Shown here piece by piece: positions 1 to 41,145 of a stretch of DNA of 44,970 bases. The stretch's first letter is position 1, and every line of letters begins with the position of its first letter. Where the stretch lies: sequence record NC_047807.1, one strand, 5' to 3'. The notes below the pieces were generated by a model. The model was not told the origin of the DNA, ran no database searches, and worked only from the letters and a program-made list of their open reading frames with translations. Made by a program: the position numbers and the translations under genes. This DNA comes from Escherichia phage vB_EcoP_C.

Positions 1-75
1 TTAAAAAGTCATAATAGTCACCTTATATAGTGTAAGTAAATATCACATAGCCCACACAGGCAGGCTATAGGCTAG

Positions 76-1578: not shown

Positions 1579-1803
1579 TTAGAGATTTGTCGTGATTACT
1601 TCATCGTAATCATAATCTTCACTACCTAGATACTCAGTAATGACTTGGTTGTCATACTCAGATACTAAGGTAACTCGGTGATATTCAGTGTCGTAATCTA
1701 TCAAATAGTGATACACATCAACACCTACGCCAGCTTGCATCATATCATCGTGGAAGCGAATAGCTTCGCTAGCTGATTCAAAGAATACCTCATGTTGATA
1801 CAT
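1579..1803 (-). CDS. Hypothetical acidic early protein (74 aa)
   Basis: ORF track; ATG overlaps upstream stop (TAATG); rich in D/E/Y. Confidence 0.6.
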   Translation of the reverse strand: MYQHEVFFESASEAIRFHDDMMQAGVGVDVYHYLIDYDTEYHRVTLVSEYDNQVITEYLGSEDYDYDEVITTNL

Positions 1804-1982
1804 TATTTACCCTCCCTCAACTCATCTATCATGTTACGGTATTGATTAACCGTATCGGTCCAACCTTCGTTAAGAAAGCGGTGATACAAGGCTAACTCAT
1901 CATCTGTAAGTAATTCGTTGTTACGAATCATGTAACATAACAGGGTGAAGAGAACGGACAGTTCACGGTTATTTAATGTCAT
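1803..1982 (-). CDS. Hypothetical early protein (about 59 aa)
   Basis: ORF track frame; track start is GTG, first ATG at 1982 has AGAGGG SD. Confidence 0.55.
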   Translation of the reverse strand: MTLNNRELSVLFTLLCYMIRNNELLTDDELALYHRFLNEGWTDTVNQYRNMIDELREGK

Positions 1983-2196
1983 GATTAGCACCCTCTTTAA
2001 GAGTTTTGATAATGCGGTTATATGCTGTACCAGTTATAACTAATTTATTACCCATCTTAAGATCAATATAGTGCAGATACTTAGGCGAATAATCATAGTT
2101 ATCTGGTGTGCGCATCTTACATAAGTCATAACCTTTATCGAGGACGTGCTGAATCTCATCAACTGGCATGTTGTACGCTTTTACTTGTACTTTCAT
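1969..2196 (-). CDS. Hypothetical early protein (about 75 aa)
   Basis: ORF track frame; start moved to ATG at 2196 preceded by GAGGGA SD. Confidence 0.55.
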   Translation of the reverse strand: MKVQVKAYNMPVDEIQHVLDKGYDLCKMRTPDNYDYSPKYLHYIDLKMGNKLVITGTAYNRIIKTLKEGANHDIK

Positions 2197-2254
2197 AGTT
2201 AATCCCTCATTCAATAAGTAATTAACCACGGCATACACAGGTTACACTAAGCAA

Positions 2255-2267
2255 ATTGTTAAAGAGC
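2255..2267. repeat. Conserved early-region 13-mer ATTGTTAAAGAGC, copy 4
   Basis: Exact repeat immediately upstream of the first early gene. Confidence 0.6.
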
Positions 2268-2419
2268 ATTGCGCTAACCTTGGTTTATCGTGGTAGGTTA
2301 TGCTTGCGCCATCTTCCACTATCTAACATTGTTTAACGGCTTCAGTAGCTAGGCCGGATAGTTAAGGACGCTCTCTATCATTCACCCTGAGTGTTTAATG
2401 TCGCTCCCGACTGATTGCT

Positions 2420-2448
2420 AATGTATACCTGTTAACTGCCTATGTCAA
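2420..2448 (-). promoter_or_regulatory. Candidate host sigma70 early promoter (TTGACA-17 nt-TACATT)
   Basis: Consensus -35, 17-nt spacer, -10 TACATT on minus strand in the non-coding region upstream of the early genes. Confidence 0.35.
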
Positions 2449-2675
2449 CACTAAATCGCACTAAGATAGATTATTTATGTGATACCTGTCACAACTGCTA
2501 AGGTAAACCTAGGTTGTCTAACGTGTGAGACTAAGGAAAGCAATAGATACAGAGCTAGGATAGGCTAGGACGGCTAGGTTTCTGGTGTTCCTCCTACTGC
2601 ATCTTATCACTATTACCTACTCTCAGCGGTCTACCGACCGCGACCTAATTGCATCTTATAGCTTTAGCTATGCAA

Positions 2676-3010
2676 TCACTAAGGTCTGGCACTAAGACTA
2701 ACTAAGGTACACTACTAAGTTGATACTAAGCTAAGCACTAAGGCTTTAACTAAGGCAGCCCACTAAGGCTAACCTAAGCCATCCATCAAGGAACAACCTA
2801 AGGTACACGTGAGCGAGTGAACGGAGCGCAAGCGGAGTGAACGAAACGAACAGATAGCCCACACCCTCACACCTTGTCAAACACTCAGGAATTGCCCTAA
2901 AACGGCCTGTGTAAGCCCTAAGCGGTTGCACTAAGGCAATCACCTTGTCCAACACTAAGGCGTGCCCTAGCGCTTCCTAGGCGTTCTACTTGTGCAGCCA
3001 CTAAGAGCAG
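2676..3010. repeat. Array of 12 or more dispersed copies of heptamer CACTAAG(G) in non-coding genome-end region
   Basis: Visible repeats of CACTAAG/ACTAAGG at irregular spacing; by analogy with T7-like short repeats near genome ends. Confidence 0.6.
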
Positions 3011-3204
3011 ACCTCGGCAAACCTCAGCCAACCCGTCGAGCTTCCTGCTGCCGCAGGTTGAAGACGGCCCAGCCTAGCCCAATTCCCAAGCCAACCGCAG
3101 CGCGGCCCCATATGGGGGAAATCCGGCGAGGGCGAGGGCGAGAGAGCTGACACACGCCTACATCAAAATTTTTTTGACTTTGGTTACTTTGTGACCACCT
3201 TTGG

Positions 3205-3360
3205 TTACACTAAGTCGAAACCTTGTGGCTTCTTCATGTAGCACTGGATAGTTCCACCAAGTACCTTCTGGCTGGCTAAGGCCGACTCCTCGGACTCATG
3301 AATCTTCCTGAGTACATTCTTCTGGAATGGACCTACACCATACGTATGAATCCAAATCAT
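3205..3360 (-). CDS. Small hypothetical protein (about 51 aa)
   Basis: Internal ATG of ORF-track frame with strong AAGGAGGT SD; lies in otherwise non-coding region. Confidence 0.3.
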   Translation of the reverse strand: MIWIHTYGVGPFQKNVLRKIHESEESALASQKVLGGTIQCYMKKPQGFDLV

Positions 3361-3430
3361 GTTACCTCCTTTGGAATACACTAAGAGCAGACCTAAGCCT
3401 GCCCTTGTGTACACTAAGATATTAACCTGC

Positions 3431-3580
3431 TTACGCAGAAGATGCAGAAGGTTTCTTCATGGTACGACGTTGAACATCCTTGGCAATGGCATAAGCCTGC
3501 TTAGGGTCACGTCCTGATTGAATAAGTTCTTCTGTGTTCTGGAGTACAGCAGCTTGCTTAACTGATTTTATTAGTGGCAT
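3431..3580 (-). CDS. Small basic hypothetical protein (49 aa) overlapping the 3' end of the endosialidase gene
   Basis: Hand translation MPLIKSVKQAAVLQNTEELIQSGRDPKQAYAIAKDVQRRTMKKPSASSA; GAGGA SD. Confidence 0.3.
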   Translation of the reverse strand: MPLIKSVKQAAVLQNTEELIQSGRDPKQAYAIAKDVQRRTMKKPSASSA

Positions 3581-5993
3581 ACATATCCTCTAACTTGTCT
3601 AAACGATAACGAGTATAAGCAGCCTCCAAGATTAAGATTTCACTATATCTAACACCAAACTGACCTTCTTCGAAGGAGACAATGCCGAAGTCGATTGCAT
3701 CTAACCCTTCGGATGCAAAAGCAGCTACAATGTCTTGTGCCAATACACCAAAGTGAGTGTGGTGCACACCACGAGACATCTCACCAATCAACTTGTACTG
3801 CTTGAAGCTAACCTTACCCCATGCCTTTAGTACACTCTCATCAATACCTTGTGATCCATACTTATGAGTGGCATCAGACGTAATAATAGGGTCACTTGTA
3901 AGATGGATAGTAGTGAATCTATTACGAGGGCCTCCAGCAGGATACACGTTATCATTGTATGGCATGATAGCCCCACTTTTGAACAAGTGCTCATTGGCAT
4001 TATATACTGCGCGTCTAGAAGTACTAGAACCTGCTCCATGTAAGGTAATTTGCGCACCGGTATCTGCTGCTGTACCCTCTCCCCCAGAGATGATAACACG
4101 TTGTGCGGTTGGGTTATCCGTTGGTATAGTCTTACCAATGAACCCATATTCACCTTCCATCAGCATCTCTGAGCGAATATTAGCACTTGTACTTGCCTTC
4201 AGGGTAAGGTGTTCGACAGTCATATCTGCGGCAACTACCTCTCCTGATAAGTGAAGTGGAGCAGGAATAGTACGAATACCATCAGTACCCATGAAGGTAG
4301 GTATAGCCTGACCCGGAGTTGCACCATATGTAAACTTACGAGATACACGATTGTCATTTGCAATCTGCATCTTATAGCAGTATATATCAGTGGGGTGTCC
4401 ATGACCTTTAAATGGGTCTTTATCTTTGTTGTCACCATAAGTCATTGGGTTGAAATGGTTTTCTCCACCAAAGATATAGTAAATGTAGCTGTCTTTAACT
4501 ACTACCGAACCTACACCTACACTAGAGTTCACAATGTCACCCTGATAGATTTGGTCTGTGATGTTAACCCATTCAATGTCATCTGCATTCCACTTGTTTA
4601 CATTCAATCGTGCATAGAAGGTACGAGGATAAGATGCCTTGTAACGATCATCTGGTGCACCTGCTTCCCATTCATTTTCTGCACGTTCTGAACCAAACAT
4701 AATAAGGTCATCTCCTACTTTAGCAAAAGGTAAGGTAGTATGATGAACATTATGTGGAAATCTTAGTGACTCCCAAGTTTGACCTATATCTCTACTACGA
4801 TGCAGAGAGCTTCCTAGTCGATCGCCACGAGTACCACGAGTGATAAGGTACAATACACCGTCATAGTACTTGATGCATGGCTCTGCCGCATCTGGTTCAT
4901 ACTCAGATGGTATCTGACGACGAACATAATTAGATGGGCTATTGAAAGCATCAGGGAAGTAGAAAAGCCCAACTTCTCGTGGAGCTACATCACCTTGATG
5001 ATAGCCCATAACAAAGCCATTGTTATCAATAGTAGCAAAGCTATGCACCTCTGTGACACGAGGGATTAGACCAAGATCTGTCTTACGCCAAGGAGATTTA
5101 TGGAAAGAAGTACCCATGTGCCAACTCTTTCCAGCGTTATTCAAATCTGAAGTCTGCTGGTTAGGTGTAAGAACCGTGAAGTTGTCCTTATCTATTACTG
5201 TTGCAACCTTCATATCACCAGATACACCTGTTACCGCAGAGTTAGAGAAGTTAACAAAATCACCAACGAAGAGTCCGTGATCAGGTACATGGATTGTTGC
5301 ATATCTCTGATTTGCAGCCTTAGTGATACCACCAGTAAGATGCAGACTACGAGACATAGGGCGATCCCACAATGCACAATTGGTTAGTGCGTTCTTGGCT
5401 AAAGTACGTGTTTCAATCATGGCAAACAGACGGTTGCGACATACACCCATACTCATACAATGATAGTTCACTGTAGGGTAATCTGGATGCAGATCAGTTA
5501 ACCACTCTGGAGTAGACCATGTTTGACCATCGTCACCAGACTTAACCCATGATACATGCAGACGACTAACACCATGACGGTCGCTACCCATGTAAGGTGC
5601 ATATATCACGTTCTCATATACAAACGCTTTGTCTTGAGGCCAAGCATTGTAATAAGGGTTATCCGTGATTTTATAGAGTTCACCATTGATAAAACCTTTA
5701 CTCACATAGTAAAGAGGTTGACCTGCTAAACGTTCCCATACGAAGCGGGTGTTATAGAATCGCTCCATATCAGGTAAAGATGATACTTTGTAAGTAGCAC
5801 CAGCACCGTCAATTCTCTTACCTGAAGCCATCGCTGCATTTACTGCATCTTGGTCGTTTGTCTTACCATCACCTTTGGCTCCAAAATCTTTAAGCGATAC
5901 AACCTCGGTGAGCTTGTCATCCAAGTTACGCCAGATTGCACCTGCTATTTTACTCTTGAATTTAACTAATGAAGAACCTAGTCTTTGAATCAT
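3558..5993 (-). CDS. Tailspike endosialidase (K1 capsule depolymerase) with C-terminal intramolecular chaperone domain, 811 aa
   Basis: Recalled similarity to phage endo-N-acetylneuraminidases; C-terminal chaperone-like block (...SDATHKYGSQGIDESVLKAWGKVSF...); strong AAGGAGG SD. Confidence 0.85.
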   Translation of the reverse strand: MIQRLGSSLVKFKSKIAGAIWRNLDDKLTEVVSLKDFGAKGDGKTNDQDAVNAAMASGKRIDGAGATYKVSSLPDMERFYNTRFVWERLAGQPLYYVSKGFINGELYKITDNPYYNAWPQDKAFVYENVIYAPYMGSDRHGVSRLHVSWVKSGDDGQTWSTPEWLTDLHPDYPTVNYHCMSMGVCRNRLFAMIETRTLAKNALTNCALWDRPMSRSLHLTGGITKAANQRYATIHVPDHGLFVGDFVNFSNSAVTGVSGDMKVATVIDKDNFTVLTPNQQTSDLNNAGKSWHMGTSFHKSPWRKTDLGLIPRVTEVHSFATIDNNGFVMGYHQGDVAPREVGLFYFPDAFNSPSNYVRRQIPSEYEPDAAEPCIKYYDGVLYLITRGTRGDRLGSSLHRSRDIGQTWESLRFPHNVHHTTLPFAKVGDDLIMFGSERAENEWEAGAPDDRYKASYPRTFYARLNVNKWNADDIEWVNITDQIYQGDIVNSSVGVGSVVVKDSYIYYIFGGENHFNPMTYGDNKDKDPFKGHGHPTDIYCYKMQIANDNRVSRKFTYGATPGQAIPTFMGTDGIRTIPAPLHLSGEVVAADMTVEHLTLKASTSANIRSEMLMEGEYGFIGKTIPTDNPTAQRVIISGGEGTAADTGAQITLHGAGSSTSRRAVYNANEHLFKSGAIMPYNDNVYPAGGPRNRFTTIHLTSDPIITSDATHKYGSQGIDESVLKAWGKVSFKQYKLIGEMSRGVHHTHFGVLAQDIVAAFASEGLDAIDFGIVSFEEGQFGVRYSEILILEAAYTRYRLDKLEDMYATNKIS

Positions 5994-7436: not shown

Positions 7437-7724
7437 TTAAGCCGCAGGTGTTACAGGGTCCGACTCCATAGTAGTTGCATCCCACTTGTCGGTGGGTTCA
7501 CTCCCACGTGCAATAGCGATGTACAAGGATTGGTTTGTTTTCTCTACAGCAACCATGGCGCCTTTCTGTTTACCAGAGAGGTGTTTAATGTTGATAGGAT
7601 GATCTTTCTTCTTAAGGTCTGCTTCAGCAACAATAGGCAAAGGGATTGCCGTTGCAGTGGTTTGTCCAGTTTTTACTCGAAAAGCCTGACCAGTAACAGT
7701 ACCTGCGGTTCCATATTTAGACAT
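7437..7724 (-). CDS. Hypothetical protein, paralogue B of tandem pair (95 aa)
   Basis: AGGAG SD; shares ...SGKQKGAMV...IAIA...W.A block with the adjacent gene. Confidence 0.6.
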   Translation of the reverse strand: MSKYGTAGTVTGQAFRVKTGQTTATAIPLPIVAEADLKKKDHPINIKHLSGKQKGAMVAVEKTNQSLYIAIARGSEPTDKWDATTMESDPVTPAA

Positions 7725-7736
7725 GTAACTCTCCTC

Positions 7737-8015
7737 TTAAGCTGGGTAAATAGTAGTGACCGCTTTATTAGCTGTCAACCAATTGGAATCTTCTTTGCCA
7801 TCAACTGCGATAGCAATAACCAGGTTATCATGTGTATCAAGACACACCATGGCCCCTTTCTGCTTACCTGATTTGGTGGCATCATTAATAACATCACCTT
7901 TCTTCTCAACAGTGTCCTCGTAAACTACAGGAAGCATCAGGGCTTCACTCACAGGTTGTATCTGCTTACGAGCAGACTTACCTGTAAGGGGTTGTGTACT
8001 ATAACTATTAGACAT
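7737..8015 (-). CDS. Hypothetical protein, paralogue A of tandem pair (about 92 aa)
   Basis: Start moved to ATG at 8015 with AGGAGAG SD; shares SGKQKGAMV...IAIA block with downstream gene. Confidence 0.6.
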   Translation of the reverse strand: MSNSYSTQPLTGKSARKQIQPVSEALMLPVVYEDTVEKKGDVINDATKSGKQKGAMVCLDTHDNLVIAIAVDGKEDSNWLTANKAVTTIYPA

Positions 8016-8147
8016 TCTCTCTCCTATTATGTAAGTATAGTAAGGAAGTAAGGAATAGGGTGTACAGGAGTACACCCATACTAAGGAATACCTATATAAC
8101 CTAGGTTAACCTATATTATCCTTGTTATTTCTCTTATTATCTGGGCC

Positions 8148-8172
8148 TTCCTTCTATAGTGTCCGGTAATTA
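8148..8172 (-). promoter_or_regulatory. SP6-type phage RNAP promoter variant (AATTACCGGACACTATAGAAGGAAGG)
   Basis: Promoter family member overlapping the terminase stop codon; drives the paralogue pair and lysis genes. Confidence 0.6.
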
Positions 8173-8901
8173 ATAAGTCCTTGAAATCCTTGCAGAAAGT
8201 GTATTTCTGCTTGCCGATTTACTCCTGTAATTCTGACCGTATACTCTTTGCTGCATAGCCACGGAAGTGTTGGTTACTCTTCGCTCAGTGCCATAATCTC
8301 CATAGAGCATTGCCCTACGGAGGTGAGGTGTGTTCATAGCTTGGATATAATCGCGCATCTCCTGCGCTCTGAGGCGATTAATCCGTGTAACCTCGTCATA
8401 GTCTATCTGAGAAGTTAATTGCCGTATAGCGCCATACAGCGCGTCTAAGCGGTCATCGTGCCGGAGGCTGTTCTTCTCAATCGTGATGTTCGACATTTGA
8501 TTGAAAAGGCTGTATGACATGCGTAGTTCAAGCGGATAGTGCTGTACCGACTCAAAATCAGACTTGACCATCTCTGCGTTGAAGATGAGCCTGTGGGCCG
8601 CCATTAGTGGCTCTAGTGTTTCAATGATACGCAACTCTTTCTGTCCGGTGGCGTAATCTTCCTCCAGAGTCACAGGCCACTCTCGTTCAAAGTATGGCTT
8701 TATAACGGCCTCAAACGCGCCATGACCAAAGTTCTTTTCAATGAATACCTCTTTAACACCTGCCTGCTTTGCGGCCTGCACAATGCGATTCAGGGACGAT
8801 TCGCGGTATCCTCCCGGCACACCAAAGCACTGATACACATAAATGAATGTGCCGTGCAGGAAGACGATAGCCACACCCGTTTCATCCCCATTCTTACCTC
8901 C
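8170..8901 (-). CDS. Terminase large subunit, exon 2 (nuclease domain; GGKNGDETGVAIV onward)
   Basis: ORF-track frame 8170-8952 carries the terminase nuclease motif; sequence upstream of 8901 is intron-derived. Confidence 0.8.
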   Translation of the reverse strand, partial: GGKNGDETGVAIVFLHGTFIYVYQCFGVPGGYRESSLNRIVQAAKQAGVKEVFIEKNFGHGAFEAVIKPYFEREWPVTLEEDYATGQKELRIIETLEPLMAAHRLIFNAEMVKSDFESVQHYPLELRMSYSLFNQMSNITIEKNSLRHDDRLDALYGAIRQLTSQIDYDEVTRINRLRAQEMRDYIQAMNTPHLRRAMLYGDYGTERRVTNTSVAMQQRVYGQNYRSKSASRNTLSARISRTY

Positions 8902-9427
8902 CGGTTTGAACGTGACGTGCGAGCCAACCCTTGTGGTGTTTACGTAAACCATGTGCCACCTTACGCATATTCTGAGGTGTTAGGTTGTGCTCTTTACAGA
9001 AGTCAGTAATGCAAGTTACAAGAAACTCTTCACCATCTGGAGAAGTGAATATGTAATCTTTGCCAGTACCTTTGTTGTAAGGTGTCATGCCTTTCTTGAA
9101 CTCAGTGGCAACAGACAAGTGCTGTCCTTTCTTGATTTCAGTGGCAATACTTATGCGTTCACCTTTCTCGATGTTACCTGCTTTGCGATAACCACCTTTA
9201 CCCTTATTCCAACCCATGTTGTCATGTGGGCGTAGCTTCTCTTCTAGTGCATAACACTCTTCTTTGCTACCAGTGAATAAGATAACGTACTCGCGGCCAT
9301 CACAAAGACGGCCTGCACACTTGTGCTCTCTCATACGCTTCTTAATATCGGAGGTTACACCAATATAACCTTGCATTACATCAGTTTCACCAACAACACG
9401 AATATGATAAACTTTATGCTCTGTCAT
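8894..9427 (-). CDS. GIY-YIG homing endonuclease (intron-encoded), 177 aa
   Basis: GIY-YIG-like motif (VYHI...11 aa...YIGVT), conserved R/E/N positions, C-terminal NUMOD-like repeats; own GGGAG SD; lies inside the terminase intervening sequence. Confidence 0.8.
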   Translation of the reverse strand: MTEHKVYHIRVVGETDVMQGYIGVTSDIKKRMREHKCAGRLCDGREYVILFTGSKEECYALEEKLRPHDNMGWNKGKGGYRKAGNIEKGERISIATEIKKGQHLSVATEFKKGMTPYNKGTGKDYIFTSPDGEEFLVTCITDFCKEHNLTPQNMRKVAHGLRKHHKGWLARHVQTGR

Positions 9428-9647
9428 ATTTAACTCCCTTCAATTGTTACGTTAATTCGCTACTTTAACTTCTACTAGTCACCTAGTAGGTCGGACTATA
9501 TCTTAGGCTTGCGCCTCCCTCTGTTTCAGACCGCTTGGCCTTACAGTTAGTCTCTACACGTTCCTGTTATTGCAACAGGCTTCGCTCGGTATTGTCTCAG
9601 TGAGAGTTCCACCGAATTAAGAGGGTTTTACGCTGGCAGAGGTGTTT
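8902..9647 (-). mobile_element. Group I self-splicing intron (about 746 nt) in terminase large-subunit gene
   Basis: Splits terminase within YIDPAG|GGKNGDETG; P1 (exon GCUGGU with intron GCCAGC 9632-9637); P10 (intron CCUCU with exon-2 GGAGG); P7 core elements GACUA (9546-9557) and AAGAUAUAGUCC (9493-9504); P9-like hairpin with GUGA tetraloop. Confidence 0.75.
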
Positions 9648-10814
9648 ACCAGCGGGGTCAATGTACATAATTTTACGGGTGACAGCGCCCCATTCATACG
9701 GTCGGGCCACAGGGCGATACATAAAGTCTGTAGGCTTATTGCCATACTTCGGTGCATCGCCAATGATGTTAATAGAGTCGTTGCTCCATGTAGGCATCAC
9801 AGGGACTTCCTCTGTACCGAATGAAGTGAAGATGAGGTTGTTCAGGCGTAGCGGATAGCGGTCAGCATCCATCATGCGAGTGTTAAGCATAAACTGAAGC
9901 TGGAACTTAGCCGCACCCTGCGAGATTTCCTTCTCAATCAGCACATCATCATCATACATTTCAGGTGCACAAGGGGCACCACTATTGCCATCCAAGCCAT
10001 ACCCTGAGCGAAGTGCTGGGTTGTCCTTCATATCCTGCACAATCATAGGTGCAAGGAAGTCGCCATAGCATTGCTCCTGCTCCACTGAGGGATAACGTGC
10101 AGTCCAGATACGAACAGAGTAACCACGAGCAGGTAGGTTATTGTAGATAGAGTTTACGTTCTGAGGAGTACCAAGGTAGATAATATCACCAAACTGGTTA
10201 ATAGATTCAAACTCCTTGGTCAGTTCCTCAAGCAAGGCACGTCCTGCCGCTGTACGAGCATTCTGCATTGACTCAACGTCATCTGCTAGGATGATATCTG
10301 CACGCGCACCCTGCATACCTGCTTCGATTGAGTAACAAGACACAGAAGGCGACTTGTCACTGCCACGTAGGGTGTAATGAATCTCAAATGCCTTAACTGA
10401 GGCACGGTCCCCTGCGTAGATGTCCGGTAGCATAAACTCAAGAAAGTCTAGGCCACGGAAGATTTTAACTACCCAACCTGCGATTTCCTCTGCTCGCTTG
10501 GCGTTTTGGGATACAACCATGATACGCTTATGCGGTTCATGAATGATACGGAATACTGTATAGATTGCTGATAGTGTTGTCTTAGCGATACCACGAGGCG
10601 CTTCGATGAGGCGATACTTGTGTCCGTAGAATAGGAACTTCAAGATATCAGCCTGCATACGAATCAGATGAGGGTTGCCTGCAATTAAGTTATGAATAAC
10701 TGTGTCTGCAAAGAGAAGCAAACCTTCCGCTGTGTAAGGAAAGGTCTGCTGTAACTCCTGTAGCATCTCCCATCTGGCAAGAGCCTCCGCTTGTGATTCT
10801 CTTGCCTTAGCCAT
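9648..10814 (-). CDS. Terminase large subunit, exon 1 (ATPase domain)
   Basis: T7 gp19-like sequence; ATG at 10814 overlaps terminase-small stop (TGATG) with AAGGAGG SD; reading frame runs into intron after ...YIDPAG. Confidence 0.85.
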
Positions 10815-11113
10815 CAATCCTCCTTAGTGAATTGAATAATCTTGCCACTTGATGCCTCTCGGATAGCCTTGAGGCGCTTAGATAGCTTGGACTCCTCCTG
10901 CTGTGCAGCGGGTGTAGCGGTAATACCATTATCAAGAACCCACTTACACATAGCTCCAATGTCTTTACCAGAGACTAAATGCAGTGCTGCATCTGGGTCT
11001 TCTTCTATAGTGTCCAGTATTGCCTGTGCTTTCTTATTAAAGATTTTGGTAATAGCACCATGTAGAATGCCAACCTCGTCTTCCGTAGCTGCATGTTTAT
11101 TGTGTACGCTCAT
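10814..11113 (-). CDS. Terminase small subunit (T7 gp18-like), about 99 aa
   Basis: Position between holin and terminase large subunit; start moved to ATG at 11113 with GGAGGAGG SD. Confidence 0.65.
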   Translation of the reverse strand: MSVHNKHAATEDEVGILHGAITKIFNKKAQAILDTIEEDPDAALHLVSGKDIGAMCKWVLDNGITATPAAQQEESKLSKRLKAIREASSGKIIQFTKED

Positions 11114-11291
11114 GGCTCCTCCTCCATAGTTTAATCTTGGTATAAAACCAGTCTCCAATTTGCAACACGGTATAAATGAATGTTGCTATTAACACCCAAT
11201 TATCCCAACTGATACCGAGGAAGTACCCACCTGATACTAATGCAGGTGGCGCCAGCTTCACACCACTATCTACCAGTTCGGAGTTAATCAT
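11097..11291 (-). CDS. Holin, class II-like (two TM segments), 64 aa
   Basis: Two hydrophobic helices plus charged C-terminus; AAGGAGG SD; T7 gp17.5-like position. Confidence 0.65.
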   Translation of the reverse strand: MINSELVDSGVKLAPPALVSGGYFLGISWDNWVLIATFIYTVLQIGDWFYTKIKLWRRSHERTQ

Positions 11292-41092: not shown

Positions 41093-41117
41093 GGTTAAAT
41101 CTCCAAAGTGAGTTAAT

Positions 41118-41140
41118 CTTATCTATACTGTCCGGTAAAT
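41118..41140 (-). promoter_or_regulatory. SP6-type phage RNAP promoter variant (ATTTACCGGACAGTATAGATAAG)
   Basis: Promoter family member with C to G change in the core (ACAGTATAG); 5 nt downstream of a palindrome. Confidence 0.5.
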
Positions 41141-41145
41141 ACGAA

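What the first reader, a model, noticed from the sequence alone, without database searches (positions are those of the whole stretch)
2270..3420. Non-coding genome-end region with a heptamer array and host-type promoters implies a permuted representation
About 1.1 kb lacks convincing genes and contains at least 12 dispersed CACTAAG(G) heptamers, a 12-bp palindrome CCCCATATGGGG (3107-3118), GC-rich GGGCGA repeats, and two candidate sigma70 promoters. It sits between the late tailspike gene and the early genes, which is where the physical genome ends, terminal repeat and concatemer junction of a T7-like phage belong. The window therefore seems to span the end-to-end junction, with the terminal repeat probably collapsed to one copy.
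Basis: partly seen in the sequence, partly recalled or inferred. Interest (0 to 1): 0.45.

Follow-up and report, generated by a model that had tools for sequence, protein, structure and literature searches.

The report
Collapsed terminal repeat of K1E-like phage
This stretch is the place where the two physical ends of a K1E/SP6-type coliphage genome were joined by the assembler, with the 289-bp terminal repeat kept once and its usual packaging and early-promoter signals around it; this is ordinary, already described biology.

Summary
The window is a reverse-complemented, circularly permuted unit genome of a Vectrevirus, 100% identical over this region to phages vB_EcoP_D and R. The reference K1E record carries a 288-bp repeat at both ends. 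Its left end maps to window 3143 and its right end to 2855, both read on the minus strand. That sequence occurs only once in the window, and 44970 + 289 = 45259, the largest genome size published for this phage set.

The heptamer is real: 12 CACTAAG on one strand where 0.17 are expected. It is conserved, one-stranded and spaced about 12 bp apart in Escherichia, Salmonella, Klebsiella and Proteus relatives. Its layout matches the CCTAAAG arrays around the T7 repeat.

Three points were missed:
- The RNA-polymerase class II pause signal ATCTGTT lies exactly on the repeat's right boundary, as in T7.
- A roughly 60-bp block before the left cut is conserved across genera.
- A real 51-codon gene lies at 3205..3360, so the region is not wholly non-coding.

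The two sigma-70-like promoters are on the minus strand and are conserved in relatives. No phage-type promoter flanks the repeat, unlike T7. The heptamers' function is untested. The finding is known biology and of low interest.

The parts
3431..3580 (-). Small late gene (49 aa), the gp48 homologue, directly after the tailspike gene
   Evidence: Translation. PHROG 2423, E = 1e-23. Annotated '48' in vB_EcoP_D and K1-5. Conserved in K1-5, SP6 and IME184.
3361..3430 (-). Intergenic spacer carrying two CTTAGTG heptamers (plus-strand CACTAAG at 3379-3385 and 3412-3418). These belong to the heptamers upstream of the repeat.
   Evidence: The same module, CTTAGTGTACACAAGGGCAGGCTTAGGTCTGCTCTTAGTG, is seen in a Proteus phage and in an uncultured viral contig.
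3205..3360 (-). Real small gene (51 aa) inside the supposedly non-coding region. Its last codons and stop overlap a heptamer (3208-3214).
   Evidence: AAGGAGGT ribosome-binding site and ATG. PHROG 3955, E = 7e-25. Nearly identical protein in Klebsiella phages IME184 and Koku. Annotated as D_38 in vB_EcoP_D.
3144..3204 (-). Conserved block just before the left-end cut: GGTGGTCACAAAGTAACCAAAGTCAAAAAAATTTTGATGTAGGCGTGTGTCAGCTC. It contains an A/T palindrome (3163-3177). It is a candidate terminase recognition or cleavage signal.
   Evidence: This is the best conserved non-coding stretch across Escherichia, Salmonella, Klebsiella, Proteus and Lelliottia phages. The function is inferred.
2855..3143 (-). 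Direct terminal repeat (289 bp), one collapsed copy. In virion DNA it should be present at both ends.
   Evidence: The K1E repeat is 288 bp and identical at both ends of NC_007637. Its first 25 nt match exactly at window 3143 and its end matches at 2855. There is a single copy in the window. Baig et al. report 250-289-bp repeats and a 45259-bp genome.
3125..3142 (-).
   Evidence: Conserved as CTCGSCCTCGSCCTCGCC in all relatives.
3106..3117 (.). Palindrome CCCCATATGGGG, 25 nt in from the left end
   Evidence: The motif C4-5 N3-4 G3-5 has invariant columns in all ten aligned phages, including T7 (CCCCCATAGGGGG, also 25 nt from the end).
2929..3005 (-). Three CTTAGTG heptamers inside the repeat (plus-strand copies at 2929, 2953 and 2999)
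   Evidence: K1E and K1-5 also have three copies and SP6 one. T7 has three CCTAAAG in its repeat.
2849..2855 (-). ATCTGTT, the single-subunit RNA-polymerase class II pause/termination core, exactly on the right boundary of the repeat and followed by T-rich sequence
   Evidence: TATCTGTT is invariant in all ten phages aligned, including T7. The signal and its position in the T7 concatemer junction are described in the papers read. Pausing by this phage's polymerase is inferred.
2677..2803 (-). Dense one-stranded array of 11 CTTAG(T/G) cores, of which 4 are exact CTTAGTG, spaced about 10-13 bp apart, beginning about 50 bp after the repeat
   Evidence: In nine aligned phages the CTTAGT cores are invariant while the spacers vary. 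The T7 counterpart has CCTAAAG at 13-bp multiples.
2580..2676 (-). Three conserved non-coding blocks of unknown role: inverted repeat ATTGCAT...ATGCAAT (2648-2676), hairpin GCGGTC-TACC-GACCGC (2626-2641), and AAGATGCAGTAGGAGGAACACCAGAA (2580-2605)
   Evidence: Nearly invariant across Vectrevirus, Zindervirus and Klebsiella phages.
2420..2492 (-). Two sigma-70-type early promoters facing the early genes: GTGACA-18-TATCTT (2492..2463) and TTGACA-17-TACATT (2448..2420). A heptamer abuts or overlaps each.
   Evidence: The second has a counterpart of the form (T)TAGTGTTGACA in all eight phages, and both are present in K1E and SP6.
1969..2196 (-). First early gene (75 aa)
   Evidence: PHROG 19860, E = 9e-49. 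Annotated as D_37.

Best explanation
The region is the concatemer junction of a K1E-like (Vectrevirus, SP6 supergroup) phage, written on the reverse strand in a circularly permuted assembly. It holds one collapsed copy of the 289-bp direct terminal repeat (window 3143 to 2855, read on the minus strand).

Shown here:
- The repeat boundaries are homologous to the ends of K1E, K1-5 and SP6.
- The repeat occurs once in the window.
- The window's own ends are arbitrary.

Inferred from T7 biology:
- In virions the repeat sits at both ends.
- Replication gives concatemers with one repeat per junction.
- Late transcription by the phage RNA polymerase runs through the junction and pauses at ATCTGTT on the repeat's right boundary.
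- Terminase (small subunit gene 10814..11158; large subunit gene 9597..10817 plus 8170..8952) is recruited there.
- Terminase uses the conserved sequence around the left-end cut (3144-3204, plus the (CTCGCC)x3 repeat and the CCCC-N-GGGG motif) and the conserved right-end sequence TTGACA..GGGTGTGGGCTA. It makes the two staggered ends while the repeat is duplicated.

The one-stranded CTTAGTG heptamers lie before the repeat, within it, and in a roughly 12-bp-phased array after it. They are the counterpart of the T7 CCTAAAG arrays. Most likely they form a protein-binding array that helps mark or organise the junction for packaging (inferred, about 35% confidence). After injection of the left end, host RNA polymerase starts at the conserved sigma-70 promoters (2492-2420) and transcribes the early genes.
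For: The window is 100% identical to vB_EcoP_D and R across 2000-3700, and 110 related records match the region. The K1E, K1-5, SP6 and T7 records carry exact repeats of 288, 234, 174 and 160 bp at both ends. The K1E left 25-mer matches exactly at window 3143, and the right end matches at 2855.

There is no second copy in the window. The wrap-around of the window ends is contiguous in K1E (2868-3477) and in vB_EcoP_D.

Baig et al. 2017 report terminases of these phages in the short-direct-repeat clade, repeats of 250-289 bp at 92-96% identity to K1E, and a largest genome of 45259 bp. Ends of the SP6-like phage UAB_Phi78 were mapped with Bal31 and run-off sequencing to the same conserved sequences, shifted about 15 nt.

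Both boundaries are conserved in 8-10 phages of several genera while the repeat interior varies from 165 to 290 bp. ATCTGTT sits on the boundary in all of them and in T7. The class II/CJ literature was read.

CTTAGT(G) is the most repeated k-mer in every junction, and the exact heptamer lies on one strand in all but one copy. It is phased at about 12 bp, and its cores are invariant while the spacers vary. Promoter conservation is shown. Terminase genes are present.
Against: No reads or virion DNA of this phage were available, so the ends are placed by homology only. Reported left ends in relatives differ within a 6-nt TCTCTC stretch, and UAB_Phi78's mapped ends are shifted by about 15 nt.

Unlike T7, no phage-type promoter flanks the repeat, so any transcription dependence of packaging would rely on read-through from distant late promoters.

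The heptamer differs from T7's and resembles it best in the opposite orientation. No protein is known to bind either heptamer. I found no accessible paper that tests these arrays.
Confidence: 0.9

Rival explanations
1. The heptamer array is an iteron-type replication origin, or a binding array for a replication protein, rather than a packaging element. On this view the region matters mainly for initiating DNA synthesis near the genome end.
For: The short repeats are one-stranded, phased at about 12 bp and conserved across genera. Conserved hairpin and inverted-repeat blocks follow directly.
Against: Copies lie on both sides of the repeat and inside it, in the same layout as in T7. G+C rises to 0.54-0.585 across 2800-3200 and stays at or above the level of the flanks across the array, so there is no A+T-rich unwinding element. 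No phage promoter is present in the region; from memory, the T7 origins are promoter-linked. No replication initiator gene is adjacent.
Confidence: 0.1
2. The heptamers are operator-like sites for a regulator of early transcription, of phage or host origin. Their presence near the ends only reflects the position of the early promoters.
For: A heptamer or near-heptamer abuts the -35 element of the conserved promoter ((T)TAGTGTTGACA) in all eight phages. A heptamer lies in the promoter spacer in K1-5, GRNsp03 and the Proteus phage, and overlaps the -10 of the upstream promoter in the window.
Against: Most copies are 200-900 bp from the promoters. Three lie in the repeat, three lie upstream of it at the genome's right end, and the dense array is about 230-380 bp upstream of the promoters. 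No DNA-binding regulator was recognised among the neighbouring small genes.
Confidence: 0.12
3. The window is a genuinely circular or terminally non-redundant molecule, and the region is just a long intergenic regulatory spacer. On this view the resemblance to K1E ends has no bearing on this phage's ends.
For: Only one copy of the sequence is present and no coverage data exist.
Against: Identity to K1E at both boundaries is near-complete. The terminase clusters in the short-direct-repeat clade, and the authors themselves report the repeats. Relatives with experimentally mapped ends share the same boundary sequences.
Confidence: 0.03

Closest known systems
Terminal repeat and genome ends of coliphage K1E (NC_007637 / AM084415), and of its relatives vB_EcoP_D/R, mutPK1A2, K1-5 and SP6
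   Same: Same position between the tailspike cluster and the early genes. Same left-end sequence (TCTCGCCCTCGCCCTCGCCGG...CCCCATATGGGG) and same right-end sequence (...GGGTGTGGGCTA|TCTGTTCGTTT). Repeat length is 289 bp here against 288 bp in K1E. The CTTAGTG layout and the early promoters are the same.
   Different: Here the repeat is present once and the record is permuted and reverse-complemented. The window has a 51-codon gene before the repeat that the K1E reference lacks. K1-5 and SP6 have short hydrophobic ORFs in that slot. Repeat interiors of K1-5 (234 bp) and SP6 (174 bp) are largely different in sequence.
Bacteriophage T7 concatemer junction: 160-bp terminal repeat, flanking CCTAAAG short-repeat arrays (named SRL/SRR by Dunn and Studier, from memory), CJ class II pause site, and host promoters A1-A3
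   Same: The order of elements is the same. The left end starts TCTC. A C-run/G-run palindrome begins 25 nt from the end. TATCTGTT lies at the right boundary of the repeat. Heptamers are one-stranded and lie before, in and after the repeat at spacings of about 12-13 bp. Strong sigma-70 promoters follow.
   Different: The heptamer sequence differs: CTTAGTG here against CCTAAAG in T7. The best resemblance is to the T7 complement. No equivalents of the phage promoters phiOL and phiOR flank the repeat. The repeat is nearly twice as long. The right end includes the A of ATCTGTT here but not in T7.
Class II (sequence-specific) pause/termination signals of single-subunit phage RNA polymerases (PTH, VSV, T7 CJ)
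   Same: The exact 7-nt core ATCTGTT is on the non-template strand. It is preceded by T, which is allowed, and followed by T-rich sequence.
   Different: Recognition by the K1E/SP6-type polymerase at this site has not been shown here. The downstream sequence is TCGTTT rather than an unbroken T run.

Membership tests
Short exact direct terminal repeat (T7/SP6-type) genome end, seen as a collapsed concatemer junction | The same sequence is present at both ends of virion DNA | not testable with these tools
   There are no reads or virion DNA for this phage. In the reference records of K1E, K1-5, SP6 and T7 the repeat is exact at both ends, at 288, 234, 174 and 160 bp.
Short exact direct terminal repeat (T7/SP6-type) genome end, seen as a collapsed concatemer junction | Both repeat boundaries are homologous to mapped ends of close relatives | tested here: met
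   The K1E left 25-mer matches exactly at 3143. The right end matches at 2855 with one mismatch in 25. The boundaries are conserved in 8-10 phages.
Short exact direct terminal repeat (T7/SP6-type) genome end, seen as a collapsed concatemer junction | Lies between the last late gene and the first early gene of a genome transcribed in one direction | tested here: met
   All large ORFs are on the minus strand. The tailspike is at 3558..5993 and early genes run from 2196 downwards.
Short exact direct terminal repeat (T7/SP6-type) genome end, seen as a collapsed concatemer junction | Single copy in the assembly, and the assembly's own ends are arbitrary | tested here: met
   Only one BLAST hit of the 289-bp sequence was found in the window. 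The wrap-around of the window ends is contiguous within K1E genes 5/6.
Short exact direct terminal repeat (T7/SP6-type) genome end, seen as a collapsed concatemer junction | Terminase of the short-direct-repeat clade | tested here: inconclusive
   Terminase small and large subunit genes were recognised. I made no terminase phylogeny. Baig et al. place the terminases of phages R, B, C, D and K in the short direct terminal repeat clade.
Class II pause signal at the concatemer junction (T7 'CJ') | Exact ATCTGTT on the non-template strand, preceded by A, C or T | tested here: met
   CTATCTGTT lies on the minus strand at 2857..2849, with the 7-nt core at 2855..2849.
Class II pause signal at the concatemer junction (T7 'CJ') | [quoted passage not shown] | tested here: met
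   The A of ATCTGTT is the last base of the repeat. TATCTGTT is invariant in ten phages including T7.
Class II pause signal at the concatemer junction (T7 'CJ') | The phage's own RNA polymerase pauses or terminates there | not testable with these tools
   This needs in vitro transcription with the K1E-type polymerase.
T7-type short-repeat arrays flanking the terminal repeat | Many copies of one heptamer, all on one strand, before, within and after the repeat | tested here: met
   There are 12 copies on one strand and none on the other. Positions relative to the first base of the repeat are -274, -241, -70; 139, 185, 209; and 377 to 893. The same layout holds in seven relatives.
T7-type short-repeat arrays flanking the terminal repeat | Same heptamer sequence as T7 (CCTAAAG) | tested here: not met
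   The heptamer is CTTAGTG on the gene strand. This is an analogue, or a diverged homologue, and not the same repeat.
Host-polymerase early promoters of T7-like phages (A1-A3 type) | Near-consensus -35 and -10 elements with 16-18 bp spacing, facing the early genes, downstream of the left repeat | tested here: met
   TTGACA-17-TACATT at 2448..2420 and GTGACA-18-TATCTT at 2492..2463. Counterparts lie at the same relative position in relatives.
Host-polymerase early promoters of T7-like phages (A1-A3 type) | Mapped transcription starts | not testable with these tools
   No transcript data are available.

The most novel reading that the evidence does not exclude
The one-stranded, roughly 12-bp-phased CTTAGTG array is the primary recognition array for the small terminase or another packaging protein of the whole SP6 supergroup. 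It is conserved from Escherichia to Proteus phages and mirrors the never-explained T7 CCTAAAG arrays. Its strand would set the direction of packaging. The CCCC-N-GGGG motif at +26 and TATCTGTT at the repeat's far end would then be an ancestral cut-and-pause module shared with T7. That would give a testable function to the T7-family short repeats, which to my knowledge have none.
Probability: 0.2. Interest if true: 0.4.

Novelty: already known. Interest (0 to 1): 0.15.

Why it matters
The main consequences are practical. The deposited or assembled sequence is permuted, reverse-complemented and lacks one copy of the 289-bp repeat. The true virion genome is therefore about 45,259 bp, and it should be re-oriented to start at window 3143 (minus strand) for comparison, engineering or rebooting.

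The comparison also gives a compact map of the cis-acting elements at the ends of K1E/SP6-type phages:
- the conserved block at the left-end cut;
- the palindrome;
- the class II pause site;
- the heptamer arrays;
- the early promoters.

This map is useful for building packaging-competent plasmids or synthetic genomes. It does not reveal a new kind of element.

Tried and rejected
- Phage-type promoters next to the repeat, as T7 has with phiOL and phiOR. I built a weight matrix from the 12 CACTATAG-containing sites on the gene strand, 11 of which fit the ATTTACYGGACACTATAGAAG consensus. It gives no score above 6 bits in 2000-3700 on either strand, against 25-41 bits for those 11 promoters. Rejected.
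- A second copy of the repeat, or an overlap of the window ends. None was found.
- Known RNA families, tRNA or tmRNA in 1800-3800. None was found.
- A structured 5' leader, such as an RNase III-type hairpin, between the promoters and the first gene. The fold z-score is -1.5, which is not convincing.
- Hairpins in the cut-site region folded as single-stranded DNA. The z-score is -2.5, which is marginal.
- The terminator-like hits are on the antisense strand and number no more than chance (2 found, 1.1 expected).
- Enrichment of GGGCGA genome-wide. There is none. Only the tandem copies at the end matter.
- Depletion of ATCTGTT on the transcribed strand. There are 2 copies, which is not significant.
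- A relation between CACTAAG and the phage promoter core CACTATAG. The heptamer points the opposite way to the promoters, and T7's heptamer shows no consistent relation. I treat the resemblance as coincidence.
- Literature on the heptamer arrays. Searches for SRL/SRR, CCTAAAG and CTTAGTG found nothing relevant. The original SP6 paper (Dobbins 2004) was not in the library. I did not look up the K1-5 (Scholl 2004) or K1E (Stummeyer 2006) papers. I therefore cannot say whether those papers already describe the arrays.
- A scan of viral contigs with a 15-mer from the cut site. About half of the 20 hits were chance matches in unrelated contigs.
Full report
WHAT THE WINDOW IS

All large ORFs are on the minus strand. 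Region 2000-3700 is 100% identical to Escherichia phages vB_EcoP_D and vB_EcoP_R (Vectrevirus, Molineuxvirinae), and 110 related records match it. In vB_EcoP_D the flanking genes are annotated as the endosialidase tailspike (window 3558..5993, -), gene '48' (3431..3580, -), a hypothetical gene (3205..3360, -), and then small early genes from 2196 downwards with ocr further on.

Read in the direction of transcription, the order is therefore tailspike, two small genes, about 1 kb of non-coding DNA, then the early genes.

CHECKING THE OBSERVATION

Heptamers. CACTAAG occurs 25 times in the window, against 7.5 +/- 2.8 in shuffles. Twelve copies lie in 2245-3418, all on the + strand. From the outside rate 0.17 are expected there (P = 1.4e-18). 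The core CTAAG occurs 24 times on the + strand and never on the - strand in the region. Eleven of the twelve exact copies fall inside the stated coordinates.

Palindrome. CCCCATATGGGG is unique in the window and lies at 3106-3117, one base off the stated position.

GGGCGA repeats. These are (GGCGAG)x3 at 3125-3142.

Promoters. Two sigma-70-like sites on the gene strand are at 2448..2420 (TTGACA-17-TACATT) and 2492..2463 (GTGACA-18-TATCTT). The raw count of such sites is not above chance.

Coding content. The claim that the region lacks genes needs correcting. 3205..3360 (-) has an AAGGAGGT ribosome-binding site, matches PHROG 3955 (E = 7e-25), and encodes a nearly identical protein in two Klebsiella phages.

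WHERE THE PHYSICAL ENDS ARE

I fetched both ends of the reference records of K1E, K1-5, SP6 and T7. Each carries an exact direct repeat at both ends: 288, 234, 174 and 160 bp respectively.

The first 25 nt of K1E (TCTCGCCCTCGCCCTCGCCGGATTT) match exactly at window 3143 on the minus strand. The last bases of the K1E repeat (...GGTGTGAGGGTGTGGGCTA) match at window 2855, with one mismatch in 25. The repeat is therefore window 2855..3143, or 289 bp.

It is present once. No long direct repeat exists in 2000-3700, and a BLAST of the 289 bp against the whole window returns only itself.

The window's own ends are arbitrary. Joined head to tail they align in one piece to K1E 2868-3477, inside genes 5/6, and to vB_EcoP_D. 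At the join, 16 nt of vB_EcoP_D are replaced by 6 unrelated nt, which looks like an artefact at the record's end.

The paper describing these phages states several supporting facts (PMC5582158). Their terminases fall in the short-direct-terminal-repeat clade. Phages R, B, C, D and K have repeats of 250-289 bp that are 92-96% identical to K1E's. The largest podovirus genome is 45259 bp, which is exactly 44970 + 289.

For an SP6-like relative, UAB_Phi78, the ends were mapped with Bal31 and run-off sequencing (PMC4837284). Its annotated repeat begins and ends in the same conserved sequences, shifted about 15 nt. Reported left ends of SP6, K1E, K1-5, mutPK1A2 and phD2B differ within a 6-nt TCTCTC stretch. 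The cut position here is therefore known to a few nucleotides only.

ANATOMY AND CONSERVATION

I built junctions for K1E, K1-5 and SP6. I also took permuted records from a Salmonella phage, two Klebsiella phages and a Proteus phage, plus uncultured viral contigs.

In all of them the two boundaries are strongly conserved while the repeat interior varies from 165 to 290 bp:
- Left boundary: GGTGGTCACAAAGTAACCAAAGTCAAAATTTTGATATAGGCGTGTGTCAGC|TCTCTCGCCCTCGCC...CCCCATAGGG
- Right boundary: CTTGACAGnGTGTGnGGGCGTGGGCTA|TCTGTTCnTTT

A distant BLAST shows that the roughly 60 bp before the left cut, plus the first 40 bp of the repeat, is the only part of the junction still recognisable in Proteus, Klebsiella and Lelliottia phages.

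Alignments that include T7 show two sets of invariant columns. One is the C-run/G-run motif, which begins 25 nt from the end in both T7 and this phage. The other is TATCTGTT at the right boundary.

ATCTGTT is the core of the class II pause/termination signal of T7 RNA polymerase. [quoted passage not shown] Pausing there is thought to couple the polymerase to terminase and start DNA maturation (citing Zhang and Studier 2004). In the window it lies on the transcribed strand at 2855..2849. It is preceded by T and followed by T-rich sequence.

THE HEPTAMERS

On the gene strand the repeat reads CTTAGTG. CTTAGT(G) is the most repeated 6-mer and 7-mer in every one of the eight junctions, always on that strand.

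The layout is the same everywhere: two or three copies in the 100-300 bp before the repeat, one to three inside it, and a dense array starting about 50 bp after it. In the window the array is at 2677-2803. Spacings there are 10-13 bp or multiples of these.

In an alignment of nine phages the CTTAGT cores are invariant while the spacers between them vary. This argues for selection on the repeats themselves.

T7 shows the same picture with CCTAAAG: 13 copies on one strand, at -106 and -77, at 17, 41 and 60, and at 175 to 332, spaced at 13-bp multiples. From memory, these are the SRL/SRR short repeats of Dunn and Studier 1983. I could not retrieve a paper that tests their function.

The two heptamers are not the same sequence, and they resemble each other best in opposite orientation. 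I therefore call them analogues, not members of one repeat family.

PROMOTERS AND WHAT FOLLOWS THE ARRAY

The promoter at 2448..2420 has a counterpart of the form (T)TAGTGTTGACA-17-TAnnnT in all eight phages, 300-470 bp after the repeat. The upstream promoter at 2492..2463 is shared with K1E and SP6. These are the equivalents of T7 A1-A3.

A weight matrix built from this phage's own promoters (ATTTACYGGACACTATAGAAG) finds nothing in 2000-3700. There is therefore no phiOL or phiOR equivalent, which is a real difference from T7.

Between the array and the promoters lie three conserved non-coding blocks of unknown role. These are an inverted repeat at 2648-2676, a GC hairpin at 2626-2641, and a block at 2580-2605.

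No Rfam family or tRNA is present, and no convincing leader structure.

HOW IT MOST LIKELY WORKS

Shown: this is the end-to-end junction with the terminal repeat collapsed.

Inferred from T7:
- Virion DNA carries the repeat at both ends.
- Concatemers carry one repeat per junction.
- The phage polymerase reading through from the late genes pauses at ATCTGTT.
- Terminase, whose genes were recognised, acts on the conserved left-cut and right-cut sequences while the repeat is duplicated.
- After infection the left end enters first, and host polymerase starts at the conserved promoters.

The role of the heptamers as a phased protein-binding array for packaging is my best guess, at about 35%. The rivals are an iteron-like replication element (about 10%) and operator sites for early-transcription control (about 12%). 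The latter is suggested by heptamers abutting the -35 element or lying in the promoter spacers.

VERDICT

The finding is nonetheless the standard architecture of T7/SP6-type genome ends. For these very phages the repeat was already reported in print. Novelty: already known. Interest is low.

The useful additions from this check are:
- the repeat coordinates, placed to within a few nucleotides;
- the class II pause site on the repeat boundary;
- the cross-genus conserved block at the left cut;
- the small gene at 3205..3360;
- the absence of flanking phage promoters.

Noticed in passing
window 8170..10817 (minus strand); intron 9472..9720; HNH ORF 8894..9427: The terminase large subunit gene is split. 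The N-terminal part is 9597..10817 (PHROG 17672) and the C-terminal part is 8170..8952 (PHROG 15524). Between them lie a group I intron (Rfam RF00028, 61 bits, E = 3.5e-13) and an ORF with an HNH-endonuclease match.
   Followed up: partly
window 1-6 and the join 44970/1: The window's ends cut a gp6-like gene a few codons after its start. At the wrap-around, 16 nt present in vB_EcoP_D (ACTGAAAACACCCTTC) are replaced by 6 unrelated nt (read TTTTAA on the gene strand). This looks like an artefact at the end of the assembly or record.
   Followed up: partly
window 2580-2676: Three non-coding blocks are conserved across Vectrevirus, Zindervirus and Klebsiella phages, between the heptamer array and the early promoters. 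They are the inverted repeat ATTGCAT...ATGCAAT (2648-2676), the hairpin GCGGTC-TACC-GACCGC (2626-2641), and AAGATGCAGTAGGAGGAACACCAGAA (2580-2605). The motif AAGATGCA occurs in two of them. Their function is unknown.
   Followed up: partly
window 3205..3360 and the same slot in relatives: The gene slot just before the repeat is variable. The window and two Klebsiella phages have a conserved 51-aa protein there. K1-5 and SP6 have unrelated hydrophobic peptides of 42 and 25 aa behind a similar AAGGAG-type ribosome-binding site. In the K1E reference no counterpart of the 51-aa ORF was found in this slot.
   Followed up: partly
window 7437..7724 and 7737..8075 (minus strand): Two adjacent ORFs both match the N-terminal 100 positions of the same family (PHROG 2725, labelled acetyl-CoA acetyltransferase). 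This could be a tandem duplication or two diverged copies.
   Followed up: no
L019 (UAB_Phi78) 1-180, compared with SP6 (L006/L009): The experimentally mapped 180-bp repeat of UAB_Phi78 starts about 15 nt earlier (TAGGCGTGTGTCAGG...) and ends about 10 nt earlier (...GTGTGCGG) than the homologous SP6/K1E boundaries. Either the cut sites differ between close relatives, or one of the mappings is imprecise.
   Followed up: no
window about 365-393 and 41115-41144 (minus strand): Besides the 12 CACTATAG-containing sites on the gene strand (11 of which fit the phage promoter consensus), two weaker promoter-like sites score 22-24 bits: ATTTAGCTGACACTATAAGAG near 393 and ATTTACCGGACAGTATAGAT near 41144. 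The first would be the earliest phage promoter, about 2.75 kb from the left end.
   Followed up: no
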